A DNA stretch of 64,000 nt from Candidatus Poribacteria bacterium. Its GTDB lineage: Bacteria; Abyssobacteria; SURF-5. Below the pieces are notes generated by a model. The model searched no databases. It saw only the letters and a list, made by a program, of their open reading frames with translations, and was not told the origin of the DNA. Every line of letters starts with the position of its first letter. Position 1 is the stretch's first letter. The DNA is taken from positions 1,456 to 65,455 of the forward strand of contig JACRIR010000130.1 in the NCBI GenBank assembly GCA_016215705.1. The letters run 5' to 3'. Positions 1,345 to 62,620 of the stretch are shown here, one piece after another. A program made the position numbers and the translations under genes.

Positions 1345-1400
1345 CGCACATATGAGCTTATTCAGAGACGCCATGCAGCATGGCGTCCCCGAACAAGCGC
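1345..1400. repeat. REP-1 palindromic repeat copy (variant: GCTTATTCAGAGACGCCATGCAGCATGGCGTCCCCGAACAAGCGC)
   Basis: Imperfect palindrome between tsf and rpsB, sharing the arms and CATGC-GCATG centre with 10 other copies in the window. Confidence 0.7.
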
Positions 1401-10580: not shown

Positions 10581-10664
10581 GTCATTCTGCGCGAAACGAA
10601 GAAGCTACTGAAATGCAAAGGCTTCAAGACCGAAGACGAGATTCTTCGCTTCGCTCAGAATGAC
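10581..10664. repeat. MITE-like element with 25-bp terminal inverted repeats (GTCATTCTG[A/C]GCGAAGCGAAGAA[T]C family, here called REP-5)
   Basis: GTCATTCTGCGCGAAACGAAGAAGC ... GATTCTTCGCTTCGCTCAGAATGAC are near-perfect inverted arms. The same motif recurs at 21436, 31276 and 62495, with a partial copy at 26411-26458. Confidence 0.7.
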
Positions 10665-21374: not shown

Positions 21375-21568
21375 TTTCCCGCAACAACTGGTAGCATTGG
21401 CGAAGACGGATTCCCCCGAGATGGTAATGGAATACGCCGTTCTGAGCGAAGCGAAGGGTCTCCGAGTGGCGCCTTGCTGCAAAGACGGTGAGGGGAAATC
21501 GTGGCAGGAATTCAAGATATCGAACCTGAGTAGTACAGAACGACACCGGAAACAGGGACTGCAAAGAA

Positions 21569-22611: not shown

Positions 22612-22646
22612 TCCTCCACCCCCTTTGCCAAAGGGGGGATTTCCCC
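22612..22646. repeat. REP-2 palindromic repeat copy (CCCCCTTTGC-AAAGGGGG family)
   Basis: CCTCCACCCCCTTTGCCAAAGGGGGGATTTCCCC in the bioB-bioF intergenic space. Confidence 0.7.
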
Positions 22647-24877: not shown

Positions 24878-24912
24878 GACCCCCCTCTTGCAAAGGGGGC
24901 AGGGGGGGATTC
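24878..24912. repeat. REP-2 palindromic repeat copy
   Basis: GACCCCCCTCTTGCAAAGGGGGCAGGGGGGGATTC. Confidence 0.7.
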
Positions 24913-54416: not shown

Positions 54417-54938
54417 TTATGTCAGGCGGGCTGTTTCGGAATAGCGTTTCGGCAGCGTCTGGTAGAGTTCGGTGGCGAATCTCCACAACTGCTCCTGCTC
54501 GGGGGTGACGTCGCCAACGATCTTACCCGGCACACCCATCAGAATCTTCATCGGTGGAACCTGCATCCGGACAGGAACCACGCAGCCGCTGCCGATGATG
54601 CAGTTATCGCCGATGTCGGCAAAGTCTTGAACGACTGCATTCATGCCTACGAGCACGTGCTCGTGGAGTATCACGCCATGCAGGATTGAACCGTGGCCGA
54701 CATGACTGTTCGGGCCGAGCACGACGGTGAAGTCGGGCCGCGCGTGGATGATGCAATTATCCTGCACATTCGAGCCGTCGCCGATCTCGATGGCGCACCA
54801 ATCTCCCCGAAGGCGCGCGCCCGGTCCGATAAAGCAATTCTTTCCGATCTTTACGCCTCCGATAACCGTCGCATCAGGATGAACGTACGAGCCCTCGCCT
54901 ATCTCAGGCGTTTTTCCCTCGAATTCGTAAATCGGCAT
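54417..54938 (-). CDS. Gamma-class carbonic anhydrase family / left-handed beta-helix (hexapeptide) protein
   Basis: YVHPDATVIGGVKIG, hexapeptide repeats, and the His ligands (HGVILHE) typical of gamma-CA/PaaY/YrdA proteins. Confidence 0.8.
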   Translation of the reverse strand: MPIYEFEGKTPEIGEGSYVHPDATVIGGVKIGKNCFIGPGARLRGDWCAIEIGDGSNVQDNCIIHARPDFTVVLGPNSHVGHGSILHGVILHEHVLVGMNAVVQDFADIGDNCIIGSGCVVPVRMQVPPMKILMGVPGKIVGDVTPEQEQLWRFATELYQTLPKRYSETARLT

Positions 54939-54962
54939 AAGCCTTCTCCTTTAGACCTCATA

Positions 54963-55092
54963 ATCAAACCGCAAAGGCGCAAAGTTCGCAAAGGGTAAGA
55001 AAGTCTAGACTGCGAATAACATCGAATCAAATGAAGGTTGTTTTCATTCTCACTTGTTCTTCTTTGCGAACTTTGCGCCTTTGCGGTTTGAT
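54963..55092. repeat. REP-3 MITE-like element with ~30-bp terminal inverted repeats
   Basis: ATCAAACCGCAAAGGCGCAAAGTTCGCAAAG ... CTTTGCGAACTTTGCGCCTTTGCGGTTTGAT flank about 65 bp of AT-rich core. Confidence 0.75.
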
Positions 55093-55113
55093 TTGCTCCT
55101 TTTCGCGTGTCGC

Positions 55114-55821
55114 CTACTTAAGGATGTATTCCTCACCCGGATTCAACGCCACGACTTTCACGCCTGGCGCTTTTTCCTTCGCGAGCTTCAAGAATTCGGA
55201 TGCGTCCGGCTCGAGGATGGGGAACGTCTGATAGTGCATGGGGATCACGGCTTTCGGTTTCAGCAACGTCAGCGCATGCGCCGCCTGGAATGGGTCCATG
55301 GTGAAAACGCTGCCGATGGGCAATAGCGCGAGGTCGAGCTTGTACATGTCGCCGAGTGTGGCCATTGTGGCAAATATGCCGGTGTCGCCTGAGTGATAAA
55401 TGGTCTTGCCGTTCTCAAGTTTGACAATGAAGCCGCATGGGCTGCCGCTCGCGGAGGAATGGAACGCCTGTGTCAGCGTAAACTTAATTCCGTCGAGATT
55501 CGCCGTGCCACCGATGTTCATCCCGTAGCCGCCGTTGACAACCTGCTCTTGAGGCACGCCGAAATCGCTCTGCAGTTTGGCGGCTGTTTCGACGAGCCCT
55601 ATGATCATCGCCTTGGTGGTCAATGCGATATCGACAGCGTTCCCCATGTGATCGAAATGGTCATGTGTGACGAGGATATAGTCGATGTTCTTCAGGTCCG
55701 CAAGCTGTGTGCTGCATGATGGATTGCCCTCGAACCAGGGGTCGATGAGAATGTTCTTGCCGTTTGCGCTCGTTATTTGAAAATTTGCGTGTCCGTGCCA
55801 CTTGACAATTACATCACCCAT
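55114..55821 (-). CDS. UPF0173-type metal-dependent hydrolase (metallo-beta-lactamase fold)
   Basis: HGHANF start, VTHDHFDH metal-binding motif, about 235 aa. Confidence 0.8.
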   Translation of the reverse strand: MGDVIVKWHGHANFQITSANGKNILIDPWFEGNPSCSTQLADLKNIDYILVTHDHFDHMGNAVDIALTTKAMIIGLVETAAKLQSDFGVPQEQVVNGGYGMNIGGTANLDGIKFTLTQAFHSSASGSPCGFIVKLENGKTIYHSGDTGIFATMATLGDMYKLDLALLPIGSVFTMDPFQAAHALTLLKPKAVIPMHYQTFPILEPDASEFLKLAKEKAPGVKVVALNPGEEYILK

Positions 55822-56018
55822 AACTCACCTCCGTGTTTTCAAGCCGACAGCTATCCGTGGGACTTTGTGGGGAGACAACCAAGCGTCGGGCGGAATTATA
55901 TCAGAGGGCGGAGACTATTTCAAAGGCGAGATTTGGTGTCTGCAGATTGCGCAGATTCGCACAGCGCGGCATGGCCGCAGCCAAACAGAGAGTCTCGGGC
56001 ACGATGAATCGCCCCTCA

Positions 56019-56060
56019 GAAAATCGGGGACACGATGCGACATCGTGTCCCCGATTTTCT
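56019..56060. repeat. REP-1 palindromic repeat copy (GATGC variant)
   Basis: GAAAATCGGGGACACGATGCGACATCGTGTCCCCGATTTTCT. Confidence 0.8.
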
Positions 56061-60696: not shown

Positions 60697-61635
60697 ATGA
60701 GCAAAATCATCGCAATCGTGGAAGATGACCGCGACCTCGGCGAGATAATACGCACTCGCCTGCAGGGCGCCGGTTATCAATGCTTCCTCATCCCGGACAG
60801 CGAGAAGGCTTTCCCCATCCTCAAGAATAAGAAACCCGATCTCGCGATACTCGACGTCATGATGCCGAAGGTGAGCGGATACGAGTTGTGCCGTCATATC
60901 AGGCGCGACCCTTTGATCTTCATGATTCCCGTACTCATGTTATCGGCGCTCGGCGGGGAACCGGAGATTTCGCACGCTTTGGAGCAGGGGGCCGACGACT
61001 ATCTTGTGAAGCCTTTCGACCTCGGGGTCCTCTTCGCAAAGGTCAAGGCGCTCCTCGAAAAACAGGCGCGCACTTTGCAGAAAAATCCGCTCACTGATCT
61101 CTACGGAGGAGAATACCTCAAGAGATTGATCACGAACAAACTCTTTCGCGATGAACTCATAGCCGCGTGCTACTTCACGCTCACGCACTTCGGTCCTTAT
61201 GTCAAACTCTATGGCAGCCAGAAACGCGACGAAGCAGTGAAAGCCTTGTCCGACGCGCTGAAAGAAGTCACCCGCGATTCGGGCGTGTATGAATGCGCGA
61301 TCACGCATCTGGGTGGACCCGACTTCATAGTACTACTTTCCGTCAAGGATTTCGAGAGGTACTGCAAGGAAGTCATCTCGCGGTTTCAGCATCGGAGGAA
61401 TGCGCTGTACAATGCCGTGGACCTGAACCGGGGATCAATAGAGGTGGAGGCAAACGGCGGAACAAGGACCGATTATCCGATCATGTCGGTCTCAGTGGGA
61501 GTCGTCACGAACGAGCGCATCAAATTCCGCGAGAGCGCGCAGATGGTAAAGGTCGCGGGCGAAGTCAATAAGCGCGCACAGCAACAGCAGAACAATGGAC
61601 ACCTCGAGATATTGAGGGAAGCAATACTGCTGTAG
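60697..61635 (+). CDS. Response regulator: CheY-like receiver + degenerate GGDEF-like domain
   Basis: REC domain (IVEDDRDLGE...DLAILDVMMP...DDYLVKPF). The C-terminal domain has GGDEF-fold landmarks (LTDLYGGEYL), but the GG[DE]EF site reads GGPDF, so it is likely not a diguanylate cyclase. Confidence 0.7.
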   Translation: MSKIIAIVEDDRDLGEIIRTRLQGAGYQCFLIPDSEKAFPILKNKKPDLAILDVMMPKVSGYELCRHIRRDPLIFMIPVLMLSALGGEPEISHALEQGADDYLVKPFDLGVLFAKVKALLEKQARTLQKNPLTDLYGGEYLKRLITNKLFRDELIAACYFTLTHFGPYVKLYGSQKRDEAVKALSDALKEVTRDSGVYECAITHLGGPDFIVLLSVKDFERYCKEVISRFQHRRNALYNAVDLNRGSIEVEANGGTRTDYPIMSVSVGVVTNERIKFRESAQMVKVAGEVNKRAQQQQNNGHLEILREAILL

Positions 61636-61646
61636 CCCGAGGATGC

Positions 61647-61678
61647 TTTCACCGCAAAGGCGCAAAGAGCGCGAAGGA
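61647..61678. repeat. REP-3 repeat copy
   Basis: CTTTCACCGCAAAGGCGCAAAGAGCGCGAAGG. Confidence 0.6.
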
Positions 61679-61723: not shown

Positions 61724-61885
61724 AGATAGGGGCGGTTCGTGAACCGCCCCTACAACGAGTAAGGCGATTCACATCGCGGCATAGCCGCAACCAGCCAAAG
61801 AACGCGCATCGGGCGCGATGAATCGCGCCCCTACAGGGTTTCTCGATTCGTGCGTGTAGGGGCGCAATTCATTGCGCCCATGTGA
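61724..61885. repeat. Cluster of three REP-4 hairpins
   Basis: GGGGCGGTTCgtGAACCGCCCCTAC, GGGCGCGATgaATCGCGCCCCTACAG, GTAGGGGCGCAATtcATTGCGCCC. Confidence 0.7.
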
Positions 61886-62494: not shown

Positions 62495-62524
62495 GTCAAT
62501 TCTGAGCAAGACGAAGAATCTCTG
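62495..62524. repeat. REP-5 variant copy
   Basis: GTCAATTCTGAGCAAGACGAAGAATCTCTG. Confidence 0.55.
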
Positions 62525-62587: not shown

Positions 62588-62620
62588 CATGAGGGCGCAA
62601 TGAATTGCGCCCCTACAGAC
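62588..62620. repeat. REP-4 hairpin copy
   Basis: CATGAGGGCGCAATGAATTGCGCCCCTACAGAC. Confidence 0.65.

What the first reader, a model, noticed from the sequence alone, without database searches (positions are those of the whole stretch)
54963..55092. REP-3: a MITE-like element with 30-bp terminal inverted repeats and solo arms elsewhere
The 130-bp element at 54963-55092 has near-perfect TIRs (ATCAAACCGCAAAGGCGCAAAGTTCGCAAAG / reverse complement) around an AT-rich core. A shorter two-armed copy sits at 29471-29545, and solo arms at 31173 and 61647. No transposase is encoded, so this behaves like a non-autonomous miniature inverted-repeat element. It sits between convergent/tandem genes (gamma-CA and the MBL hydrolase).
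Basis: seen in the sequence. Interest (0 to 1): 0.5.

Follow-up and report, generated by a model that had tools for sequence, protein, structure and literature searches.

The report
Cross-phylum heptamer-array hairpin repeat
The 132-bp inverted repeat is real, but rather than a classical transposon-derived MITE it is one copy of an apparently undescribed non-coding hairpin repeat, built from CGCAAAG heptamers, that occurs in at least 15 bacterial phyla, an archaeon and phage contigs, and whose arms are held constant by selection at this site.

Summary
Window 54962-55093 is a perfect 32-nt inverted repeat around a 68-nt AT-rich spacer. It lies between two genes on the same (minus) strand, an MBL-fold hydrolase and a gamma-carbonic-anhydrase-like gene, in a Candidatus Poribacteria MAG. 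A decayed two-armed copy (29476-29544) and two solo arms (31176, 61651) are also real.

The MITE reading is only partly supported. Each arm is an oriented array of 2-5 CGCAAAG heptamers, consensus TTTC-ACCGCAAAG-G-CGCAAAG-RN-CGCAAAG-AAA. The same arm occurs in at least 15 phyla, a Methanoperedens archaeon, cyanobacterial plasmids and a tailed-phage contig. Interiors between genomes are unrelated.

Within some genomes the whole unit is copied, in one case in flipped orientation. A distant relative has an empty site.

Against a classical MITE: no target-site duplication appears even in young copies, and no transposase recurs among 672 ORFs next to 591 arms. Arrays also pair in both polarities.

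At the orthologous site in a relative, 4-fold sites are 67% identical but the arms are 64/66 identical, so the arms are constrained. No strand-specific RNA signal, Rfam family or paper matches.

Best reading: a new REP/BIME/REPIN-like non-autonomous hairpin repeat with an unidentified partner.

The parts
54962..54993 (+). Left arm: AATCAA-ACCGCAAAG-G-CGCAAAG-TT-CGCAAAG, three CGCAAAG heptamers. On the gene (minus) strand this is the arm next to the gamma-CA start.
   Evidence: I25. It is 31/32 identical in ortholog L120.
54994..55061 (.). Variable AT-rich spacer or loop, 68 nt and 35% G+C. It has no conserved motif.
   Evidence: Against L120 it diverges at roughly the neutral rate and carries 36-nt and 123-nt indels. 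No k-mer is shared across the family other than further heptamers.
55062..55093 (+). Right arm, the exact reverse complement of the left arm. On the gene strand it lies 20 nt after the MBL hydrolase stop codon.
   Evidence: I25. It is 33/34 identical in L120.
54939..54961 (-). 23-nt leader between the element and the gamma-CA ATG, holding the ribosome-binding site (AAAGGAGAAGG). It is conserved together with the adjacent arm.
   Evidence: It is 23/23 identical in L120.
29476..29544 (+). Decayed two-armed copy (left arm 29476-29501, right arm 29519-29544). It ends 28 nt before the ATG of the E2 acyltransferase gene (29573).
   Evidence: The site is orthologously occupied in L141 (right arm only) and L143 (full ~300-nt element), and is empty in L144.
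31176..31201 (+). Solo arm ACCGCAAATGCGCAAAGTGCGCAAAG, starting 25 nt after the E2 stop codon.
   Evidence: It is absent from the 89%-identical relative L141, where gene order also differs.
61651..61676 (+). Solo arm ACCGCAAAGGCGCAAAGAGCGCGAAG, starting 15 nt after the stop of the gene at 60697-61635.
55114..55821 (-). Upstream flanking gene, an MBL-fold metal-dependent hydrolase. It is context, not part of the element.
   Evidence: It is 100% identical to a Candidatus Poribacteria bacterium protein.
54417..54938 (-). Downstream flanking gene, a hexapeptide-repeat gamma-carbonic-anhydrase-like protein. It is context, not part of the element.
   Evidence: Orthologs carry PF00132 (Hexapep).

Best explanation
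The element is one copy of a non-autonomous repeat that forms a hairpin at the DNA level, of the REP/BIME/REPIN kind and not an IS-derived MITE.

Shown:
- The unit is an oriented 26-40 nt module of 2-5 CGCAAAG heptamers separated by 1-3 nt. It usually starts (T)TC-ACC or GA-ACC and ends AAA.
- Two modules in inverted orientation around an arbitrary spacer of 0-300 nt give a long hairpin or cruciform.
- The paired unit can be copied as a whole to new intergenic sites in either orientation, without a target-site duplication.
- Solo modules exist.
- The family is present in some lineages and absent from close relatives. It is shared across phyla and carried on phage contigs.
- At this locus the arms have been kept almost unchanged while neutral sites diverged by about one third.

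Inferred:
- Copying uses a trans-acting protein encoded elsewhere, which recognises the heptamer duplex or hairpin. By analogy with the single-copy RAYT of REPINs, this would work through single-stranded DNA without making duplications.
- Spread between phyla is horizontal, with phages as one vehicle.
- Solo arms are half-decayed pairs.
- In the MBL-to-gamma-CA transcript the 32-bp stem loops out the insertion. That brings the upstream stop codon and the downstream ribosome-binding site close together and offers a double-stranded RNA target. This would explain why the host keeps the arms.
For: Family and boundaries:
They include isolates from three phyla (Flavobacterium anhuiense, Thiobaca trueperi, Brasilonema) and a Methanoperedens MAG.
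- 72% of hits carry an unseeded third heptamer, and 62% have an inverted partner within 480 nt.
- The consensus from 215 arms has a sharp outer boundary.
- Interiors share nothing except further heptamers.

Copying of whole units:
- Two 224/226-bp copies in L004 have interiors 90% identical and lie in flipped orientation.
- Eight copies on one phage contig have interiors 77-93% identical.

Presence and absence:
- The OsmC-to-E2 spacer is 25 nt and empty in L144. It is filled in L143, L141 and the window.
- Genome GCA_964607485.1 has no arms in 16 kb, while closer relatives have 3-5 in 5-9 kb.

Arrangement and context:
- 90% of neighbouring arrays are inverted.
- Arms of the same element resemble each other more than arms of different elements, 54% against 39%, with 0 of 2000 permutations reaching this.
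- The number of heptamers matches between arms more often than chance.
- Copies are intergenic and thin in divergent promoter regions: 5 divergent against 12 convergent and 34 tandem.

DNA-level symmetry:
- G-U-compatible mismatches show no bias toward the transcribed strand.
- Solo arms show no strand bias, 11 against 15.
- Sense and antisense RNA folds are equally stable, p = 0.73.

Constraint at this locus:
- The arms are 64/66 identical between the window and L120, while 4-fold sites are 65-67% identical, including the codons right beside the element. P = 1.4e-9.

Phage carriage:
- A genuine tailed-phage structural module carries the elements.
Against: - No trans-acting enzyme was found. 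No recombinase or transposase family recurs among 150 neighbour ORFs scanned with Pfam or 672 neighbour ORFs clustered by BLAST.
- No clean insertion/empty-site pair at high flank identity was obtained, so mobility rests on repeated whole units and on a distant empty site.
- Purifying selection on one orthologous copy is not what a purely selfish repeat predicts.
- Exact arm conservation across at least 15 phyla is unlike REP/REPIN families, which are lineage-specific.
- The arm is not itself a palindrome, unlike a REP.
- 38 array pairs have the opposite polarity with a tight 28-35 nt gap. The outer ACC end is therefore not a fixed terminus.
- Spacer bases of the two arms agree barely above chance.
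Confidence: 0.5

Rival explanations
1. It is a host cis-acting RNA element. The long intercistronic hairpin would be an RNase III processing site, an mRNA-stabilising or insulating structure, or a device that keeps translation of neighbouring genes coupled. Its dispersal would be secondary.
For: - The arms and the 23-nt leader to the gamma-CA ATG are conserved far above the neutral rate.
- The RNA hairpin is very stable.
- In the phage contig, at least 8 elements sit exactly between the stop codon and the ribosome-binding site of consecutive late genes. From my own knowledge, this resembles the RNase III sites of the T7 polycistronic mRNAs.
- In the window, the arms begin 15-25 nt after stop codons and end 23-28 nt before start codons.
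Against: - There is no strand specificity of any kind.
- A structural hairpin does not need the same heptamer sequence in 15 phyla.
- Spacer bases of the two arms do not covary.
- 38% of arms are solo.
- No terminator-like U-tract follows the stem.
- No Rfam family matches.
Confidence: 0.2
2. It is a classical MITE: a deletion derivative of an insertion sequence, moved by a DDE transposase that binds the terminal inverted repeats.
For: - It is short, non-coding, AT-rich inside, intergenic and multi-copy, with terminal inverted repeats. This fits the definition in PMC10969869.
- Whole-unit copies and an empty site exist.
Against: - No target-site duplication was found in 65 copies at offsets 0-7 and lengths 2-8, nor by eye in 8 young phage copies.
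- No IS or transposase lies between or beside 591 arms.
- The number of heptamers varies and both polarities occur.
Confidence: 0.1
3. The heptamer arrays are binding sites on double-stranded DNA for a regulator or nucleoid-associated protein. The inverted pairs would be operator-like, and the hairpin incidental.
For: - The heptamer sequence is what is conserved, not the pairing of spacer bases.
- There is no strand bias.
- The arms are constrained in orthologs.
- From my own knowledge, arrays of 7-8 bp repeats are bound cooperatively by ribbon-helix-helix proteins such as MetJ and omega.
Against: - A duplex-DNA site needs no inverted partner, yet 90% of neighbouring arrays are inverted.
- The sites show no link to any gene class or to promoters.
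- No single DNA-binding protein is known that is shared by Poribacteria, Cyanobacteria, Bacteroidota, Chloroflexota, CPR bacteria, an archaeon and phages.
Confidence: 0.1

Closest known systems
REPINs and REP/BIME elements (REP doublets forming hairpins, mobilised by RAYT tyrosine transposases; PMC3116915, PMC3337134)
   Same: - Two conserved units lie in inverted orientation around a poorly conserved spacer and form a long hairpin in ssDNA or mRNA.
- Copies are extragenic and there are many per genome.
- Singlets coexist with doublets.
- There is no target-site duplication and no coding capacity.
- Copies persist at orthologous sites.
- Head-to-head and tail-to-tail arrangements both occur, as in BIMEs.
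   Different: - The unit here is a direct array of CGCAAAG heptamers. It is not a 20-40 nt imperfect palindrome with a GTAG or CGTC tag.
- No RAYT or other flanked single-copy gene was found.
- The same unit sequence is shared by at least 15 phyla and by phages, whereas REP families are lineage-specific.
Prokaryotic MITEs such as Correia/NEMIS, ERIC and Nezha (review PMC10969869)
   Same: - They are under 500 bp, non-coding, AT-rich inside and intergenic, with terminal inverted repeats that fold into a stable hairpin in transcripts.
- From my own knowledge, the hairpins of Correia elements are cut by RNase III and alter mRNA stability. That is a plausible model for what this copy does in its transcript.
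   Different: - There are no target-site duplications and no parent IS.
- The interior is unrelated between genomes.
- The repeat arms are modular and variable in length.
Foldback (FB) transposons of Drosophila and other eukaryotes (from my own knowledge)
   Same: The long inverted arms are built from tandem copies of a short motif. Arm length varies, and the central region is heterogeneous or absent.
   Different: They are eukaryotic, kilobase-scale, generate 9-bp duplications and have partner coding elements. The resemblance is architectural only.
Small dispersed repeats and heptameric STRR repeats of Nostocales (Elhai et al. 2008, Mazel et al. 1990; from my own knowledge, not read here)
   Same: These are very short mobile-looking intergenic repeat modules and heptamer-based tandem repeats. 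Nostocales plasmids do carry the present arm.
   Different: The sequences differ. STRR heptamers are contiguous and are not arranged as inverted arms. Those families are confined to cyanobacteria.

Membership tests
Classical MITE (IS-derived) | Short (<500 bp), non-coding, multi-copy, intergenic | tested here: met
   The element is 132 bp. Family lengths run 48-342 nt with a median of 125. There are 4 copies in the window. Copies are intergenic.
Classical MITE (IS-derived) | Terminal inverted repeats | tested here: met
   The window copy has a 32-nt perfect inverted repeat. In the family the arms are variable heptamer arrays, and both polarities occur.
Classical MITE (IS-derived) | Flanking direct repeats (target-site duplication), at least in young copies | tested here: not met
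   65 copies tested at offsets 0-7 and lengths 2-8 gave counts at control level. None is visible around 8 near-identical phage copies or around the window copy.
Classical MITE (IS-derived) | A related autonomous IS with the same ends, encoding a transposase | tested here: not met
   No transposase lies between or beside 591 arms in 258 loci. Whole genomes could not be read.
REPIN / REP-RAYT system | Two repeat units in inverted orientation plus a spacer, forming a hairpin, with the doublet as the replicating unit | tested here: met
   Of neighbouring array pairs, 139 are +- and 38 are -+, against 20 in direct orientation. Whole doublets are repeated within genomes.
REPIN / REP-RAYT system | Each unit is itself a short imperfect palindrome, usually tagged GTAG or CGTC | tested here: not met
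   The arm is a direct repeat of CGCAAAG and is not self-complementary. True GTAG-tagged REPs do exist elsewhere in the window, for example at 29390-29418.
REPIN / REP-RAYT system | A single-copy RAYT gene flanked by the repeats | not testable with these tools
   No Y1-transposase family appears among the neighbour ORFs. However, a one-per-genome gene would rarely be sampled in 8-kb loci, and whole genomes were not available.
REPIN / REP-RAYT system | Lineage-specific sequence, mostly inherited vertically | tested here: not met
   The same 17-26 nt arm is found in at least 15 phyla, an archaeon, cyanobacterial plasmids and phage contigs.
Intrinsic (Rho-independent) terminator | G+C-rich stem followed directly by a U-tract | tested here: not met
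   The scan found no terminator-like site at the element. In the family the stem is followed by GAAA and only then by a weakly T-rich flank.
Integron attC site | Imperfect inverted repeat bounded by the core sites RYYYAAC and GTTRRRY | tested here: not met
   The ends read (T)TCACCGCAAAGG and CCTTTGCGGTGA(A). There is no GTTRRRY at the boundary.
Any Rfam RNA family | Match to a curated covariance model | tested here: not met
   There were no gathering-score hits in the window or in 18 other loci. At E<=10 the only hits were generic long-hairpin matches to plant miRNA precursors, far below their cut-offs.

The most novel reading that the evidence does not exclude
The CGCAAAG-array hairpin is a previously undescribed, pan-prokaryotic class of repeat module. 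It is found in at least 15 bacterial phyla, an archaeon, plasmids and tailed phages. It would be moved or maintained by an unknown protein that recognises the heptamer duplex or hairpin. Once inserted between genes it is kept by purifying selection, so it acts as a horizontally spreading, exapted intercistronic element and not as a lineage-bound REP or an IS-derived MITE.
Probability: 0.35. Interest if true: 0.8.

Novelty: new variant of a known kind. Interest (0 to 1): 0.6.

Why it matters
REP-like repeats and MITEs are normally confined to a genus or family, and each is tied to its own transposase. A 26-nt module kept nearly identical from Poribacteria to Cyanobacteria, Bacteroidota, Chloroflexota, CPR bacteria, Methanoperedens and phages implies one of two things. 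Either an unusually promiscuous horizontally transferred system exists, or there is a recognition partner common to very different cells.

Neither is described in the literature I could search. It is easy to recognise, and it occurs in cultivable strains (Thiobaca trueperi DSM 13587, Flavobacterium anhuiense FLA4, Nostoc and Calothrix). The partner and any role in operon expression are therefore directly testable.

There is also a practical point. These arrays generate spurious ORFs and break assemblies in metagenomes.

Tried and rejected
- Rfam: gathering thresholds on the window and on 18 other loci gave nothing, and a permissive scan around the element gave only generic hairpin noise.
- Literature search for the arm sequence, its reverse complement and four heptamer variants: no relevant paper. 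A search on GxxExxY, four-helix-bundle and intervening-sequence genes gave nothing useful.
- Target-site duplications: none.
- Promoter and terminator scan at the element: none.
- Transposase or recombinase association: BLAST clustering and Pfam scans of neighbour ORFs found none.
- My initial idea that the arms flank small 'selfish' genes such as four-helix-bundle or GxxExxY proteins: only 3 GxxExxY-like ORFs among 672 neighbours, so this is not a general feature.
- Strand-specific RNA signal, tested three ways: none.
- attC, DNA-uptake-sequence, sigma-54, ops/RfaH and Csp-binding resemblances were considered from memory. I dropped them because the similarity is only a few bases or because the factor is not shared by all carrier phyla.
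- Cultured-phage and E. coli collections: no real copies.
- An exact-protein look-up of the gamma-CA-like product found nothing on record.
- My OsmC codon comparison used wrong coordinates and was discarded.

Full report
**1. The observation**

The sequence at 54962-55093 is a perfect inverted repeat. Its arms are 32 nt (AATCAAACCGCAAAGGCGCAAAGTTCGCAAAG) and its spacer is 68 nt. The spacer is 35% G+C, against 54.6% for the window.

The core 17-mer ACCGCAAAGGCGCAAAG occurs 6 times at up to 3 mismatches, against 0.35 expected, and none of 100 shuffles reached that count. The hits are:
- both arms of this element;
- a decayed pair at 29476-29544;
- solo arms at 31176 and 61651.

The element folds into one long hairpin: RNA -77.1 kcal/mol (z = -8.25) and DNA -45.5 kcal/mol (z = -12).

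It encodes nothing. It lies between two minus-strand genes, 20 nt after the stop of an MBL-fold hydrolase and 23 nt before the ATG of a gamma-carbonic-anhydrase-like gene. The hydrolase is 100% identical to a protein of a Candidatus Poribacteria MAG.

**2. Anatomy of the arm**

Each arm is a direct array of CGCAAAG heptamers separated by 1-3 nt. In 215 arms the consensus is aaaa..TTTC|ACCGCAAAG-G-CGCAAAG-RN-CGCAAAG-AAA. The outer boundary is sharp, and the third heptamer, which was not part of the search seed, is conserved.

- Arrays hold 2-5 heptamers.
- Elements are 48-342 nt long, with a median of 125.
- Interiors share no k-mer other than further heptamers.

**3. Distribution**

The hosts include:
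- Beta- and Gammaproteobacteria, Chloroflexota, Verrucomicrobiota, Bacteroidota and Planctomycetota;
- Cyanobacteriota, Desulfobacterota, Acidobacteriota, Fibrobacterota and Latescibacterota;
- Nitrospinota, Spirochaetota, Bacillota (Pelosinus) and Gracilibacteria;
- a Methanoperedens archaeon.

Clean copies occur in the isolates Thiobaca trueperi DSM 13587, Flavobacterium anhuiense FLA4 and Brasilonema. The Xenorhabdus hit looks like chance.

Other collections:
- Plasmids of Nostoc, Calothrix and Sphaerospermopsis carry unannotated solo arms.
- E. coli genomes and cultured phages have no real copy.
- About 12 of 17 IMG/VR stretches are real.

One 16-kb IMG/VR contig encodes terminase, portal, head-morphogenesis, protease-capsid and tail proteins. 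It carries at least 8 elements, each placed exactly between the stop codon and the ribosome-binding site of consecutive genes.

**4. Evidence that whole units are copied and can be absent**

- Two 224/226-bp copies in a Verrucomicrobiota contig have interiors 90% identical but flipped.
- The phage copies are 77-93% identical inside.
- Between genomes, interiors are at background similarity.
- At the OsmC-to-E2 site the spacer is 25 nt and empty in relative L144. It holds a full ~300-nt element in L143, only the start-proximal arm in L141, and a decayed pair in the window.
- The genome that gave L122 and L144 has no arm in 16 kb. Closer relatives have 3-5 arms in 5-9 kb.

**5. Evidence against a classical MITE**

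- No target-site duplication was found at any offset (0-7) or length (2-8) in 65 copies, nor by eye around the 8 young phage copies.
- No ORF family of transposase or recombinase type recurs next to the arms. This was tested on 276 ORFs, 150 ORFs by Pfam, and 672 ORFs beside 591 arms in 258 loci. The neighbours are ordinary housekeeping genes.
- The outer end is not a fixed terminus. Of neighbouring arrays within 400 nt, 139 face with the ACC ends outward, and 38 face the other way with a tight 28-35 nt gap. Only 20 are in direct orientation.
- The two arms of an element resemble each other more than arms of different elements: 54% against 39% beyond the seed, with 0 of 2000 permutations reaching this. 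They match in heptamer number more often than chance. Their spacer bases, however, agree barely above chance.

**6. RNA or DNA?**

Three tests for a strand-specific RNA signal were negative:
- Mismatches compatible with G-U pairing are equally frequent on both strands, whatever the gene orientation.
- Solo arms read CGCAAAG on the sense strand 11 times and CTTTGCG 15 times.
- Sense and antisense folds of 48 elements in tandem gene contexts are equally stable (26 against 22, p = 0.73).

There is no terminator or promoter signature and no Rfam family. Context is intergenic with a mild deficit in divergent regions: 34 tandem, 12 convergent and 5 divergent, against a background of 480, 153 and 148.

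**7. Constraint at this locus**

In relative L120 (94% amino-acid identity) the same element sits at the same place.
- 4-fold degenerate sites of the two flanking genes are 65-67% identical. In the codons directly beside the element they are 61-63% identical.
- The arms are 64/66 identical, and the 23-nt leader to the ATG is 23/23 identical.
- The interior has diverged and carries 36-nt and 123-nt indels, one of which holds a nested REP palindrome.
- The probability of 2 or fewer differences in 66 neutral sites is 1.4e-9.

In L121 (88%) only the start-proximal arm survives. In L122 (82%) a different long hairpin occupies the spacer. So the arms of this copy are under purifying selection. More broadly, this spacer always holds some long hairpin.

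**8. Interpretation**

The best fit is a non-autonomous repeat that forms a hairpin at the DNA level, of the REP/BIME/REPIN kind. It is a conserved unit, mostly paired in inversion around a free spacer, copied as a whole without duplications, and leaving singlets (definition read in PMC3116915; MITE definition in PMC10969869).

It is not a member of that family as defined:
- the unit is not a palindrome;
- no RAYT was seen;
- the sequence is shared across phyla.

I infer, and have not shown, three things:
- a trans-acting partner encoded elsewhere;
- horizontal spread with phages as one vehicle;
- exaptation of inserted copies as intercistronic hairpins.

In the window copy, the stem would bring the hydrolase stop codon and the gamma-CA ribosome-binding site to within about 45 nt of each other, instead of 175 nt.

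**9. Limits**

- Only 8-kb loci were available, not whole genomes, so a one-per-genome partner gene would be missed.
- Gene calls in the foreign loci are my own crude longest-ORF calls.
- Many carriers are MAGs. Isolates from three phyla and contigs of 0.5-1.2 Mb argue against binning artefacts.
- The literature search covers open-access text only.

Noticed in passing
window 1359-1395, 5479, 14238, 27681, 36757, 42203, 43444, 47743, 49952, 54347, 56021, 59040: Twelve copies of a separate 37-60 nt palindromic repeat, (C)TTATTCGGGGACACCATGCGGCATGGTGTCCCCGAATAAG. One copy is nested inside the orthologous element in L120, and another lies downstream of E2 in L141.
   Followed up: partly
window 29390-29418; 61811-61836; 62593-62618; 29862-29887; 55997-56022; 61725-61748: GTAG-tagged REP-type palindromes such as GTAGGGGCGACCCGCCGGGTCGCCC and GGGCGCGATGAATCGCGCCCCTAC. 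This is the kind of repeat usually linked to RAYT transposases. No RAYT was looked for.
   Followed up: no
window 21440-21462, 31280-31302, 62500-62522 (weaker at 10585 and 59710); L121 and L143 interiors: The motif GTCATTCTGAGCGAAGCGAAGAATCTC recurs in the window. It also sits inside the orthologous CGCAAAG elements of relatives L121 and L143. L122 has the related GTCATTGCGAGGAGCAAGGCGACGAAGCAATCC hairpin. This looks like another repeat module shared across lineages and nested in the same spacers.
   Followed up: partly
window 28781-28800, 28877-28896, 22618-22637, 24881-24900: Short palindromes CCCCCCTTTGCAAAGGGGG(A) occur in intergenic DNA. Two of them lie 96 nt apart between the E1-beta gene and a small OsmC-like gene.
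   Followed up: no
L130 and L140 (IMGVR_UViG_3300018080_000843): A tailed-phage structural module has at least 8 near-identical CGCAAAG/CGCAGAG hairpin elements, one in almost every gap between late genes. Each has a central G+C hairpin flanked by a T-run and an A-run. Three other viral contigs (L131, L136, L139) have arms next to their portal genes.
   Followed up: partly
L155 783-874, L202 1649-1741, L207 2351-2434, L224 30-121, L161: These are reverse-polarity hairpins, (CTTTGCG)x4-AGAAAC...GTTTCT-(CGCAAAG)x4, with a tight 28-35 nt gap. L155 and L207 are the same locus in related soil organisms.
   Followed up: partly
L090 2648-3028 (minus strand); also L189 566-967 and L054 5500-5733: Small GxxExxY-type (PD-(D/E)XK-like) ORFs lie directly beside or between arms in three unrelated loci. 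The family name is recognised from memory and was not confirmed by a profile search.
   Followed up: no
L031 1933-1956 (Candidatus Methanoperedens contig, 494 kb): A solo three-heptamer arm with the canonical GCGGTGA end sits in an archaeal MAG. It is the only archaeal instance seen.
   Followed up: no
L127 1600-1755 and L129 466-620: Two viral contigs are 75% identical over 2.2 kb. They share an orthologous four-heptamer solo arm that fills the whole gap between a stop codon (TGA, overlapping the arm's flank) and the next ATG. The purine-rich arm may itself supply the ribosome-binding site.
   Followed up: partly
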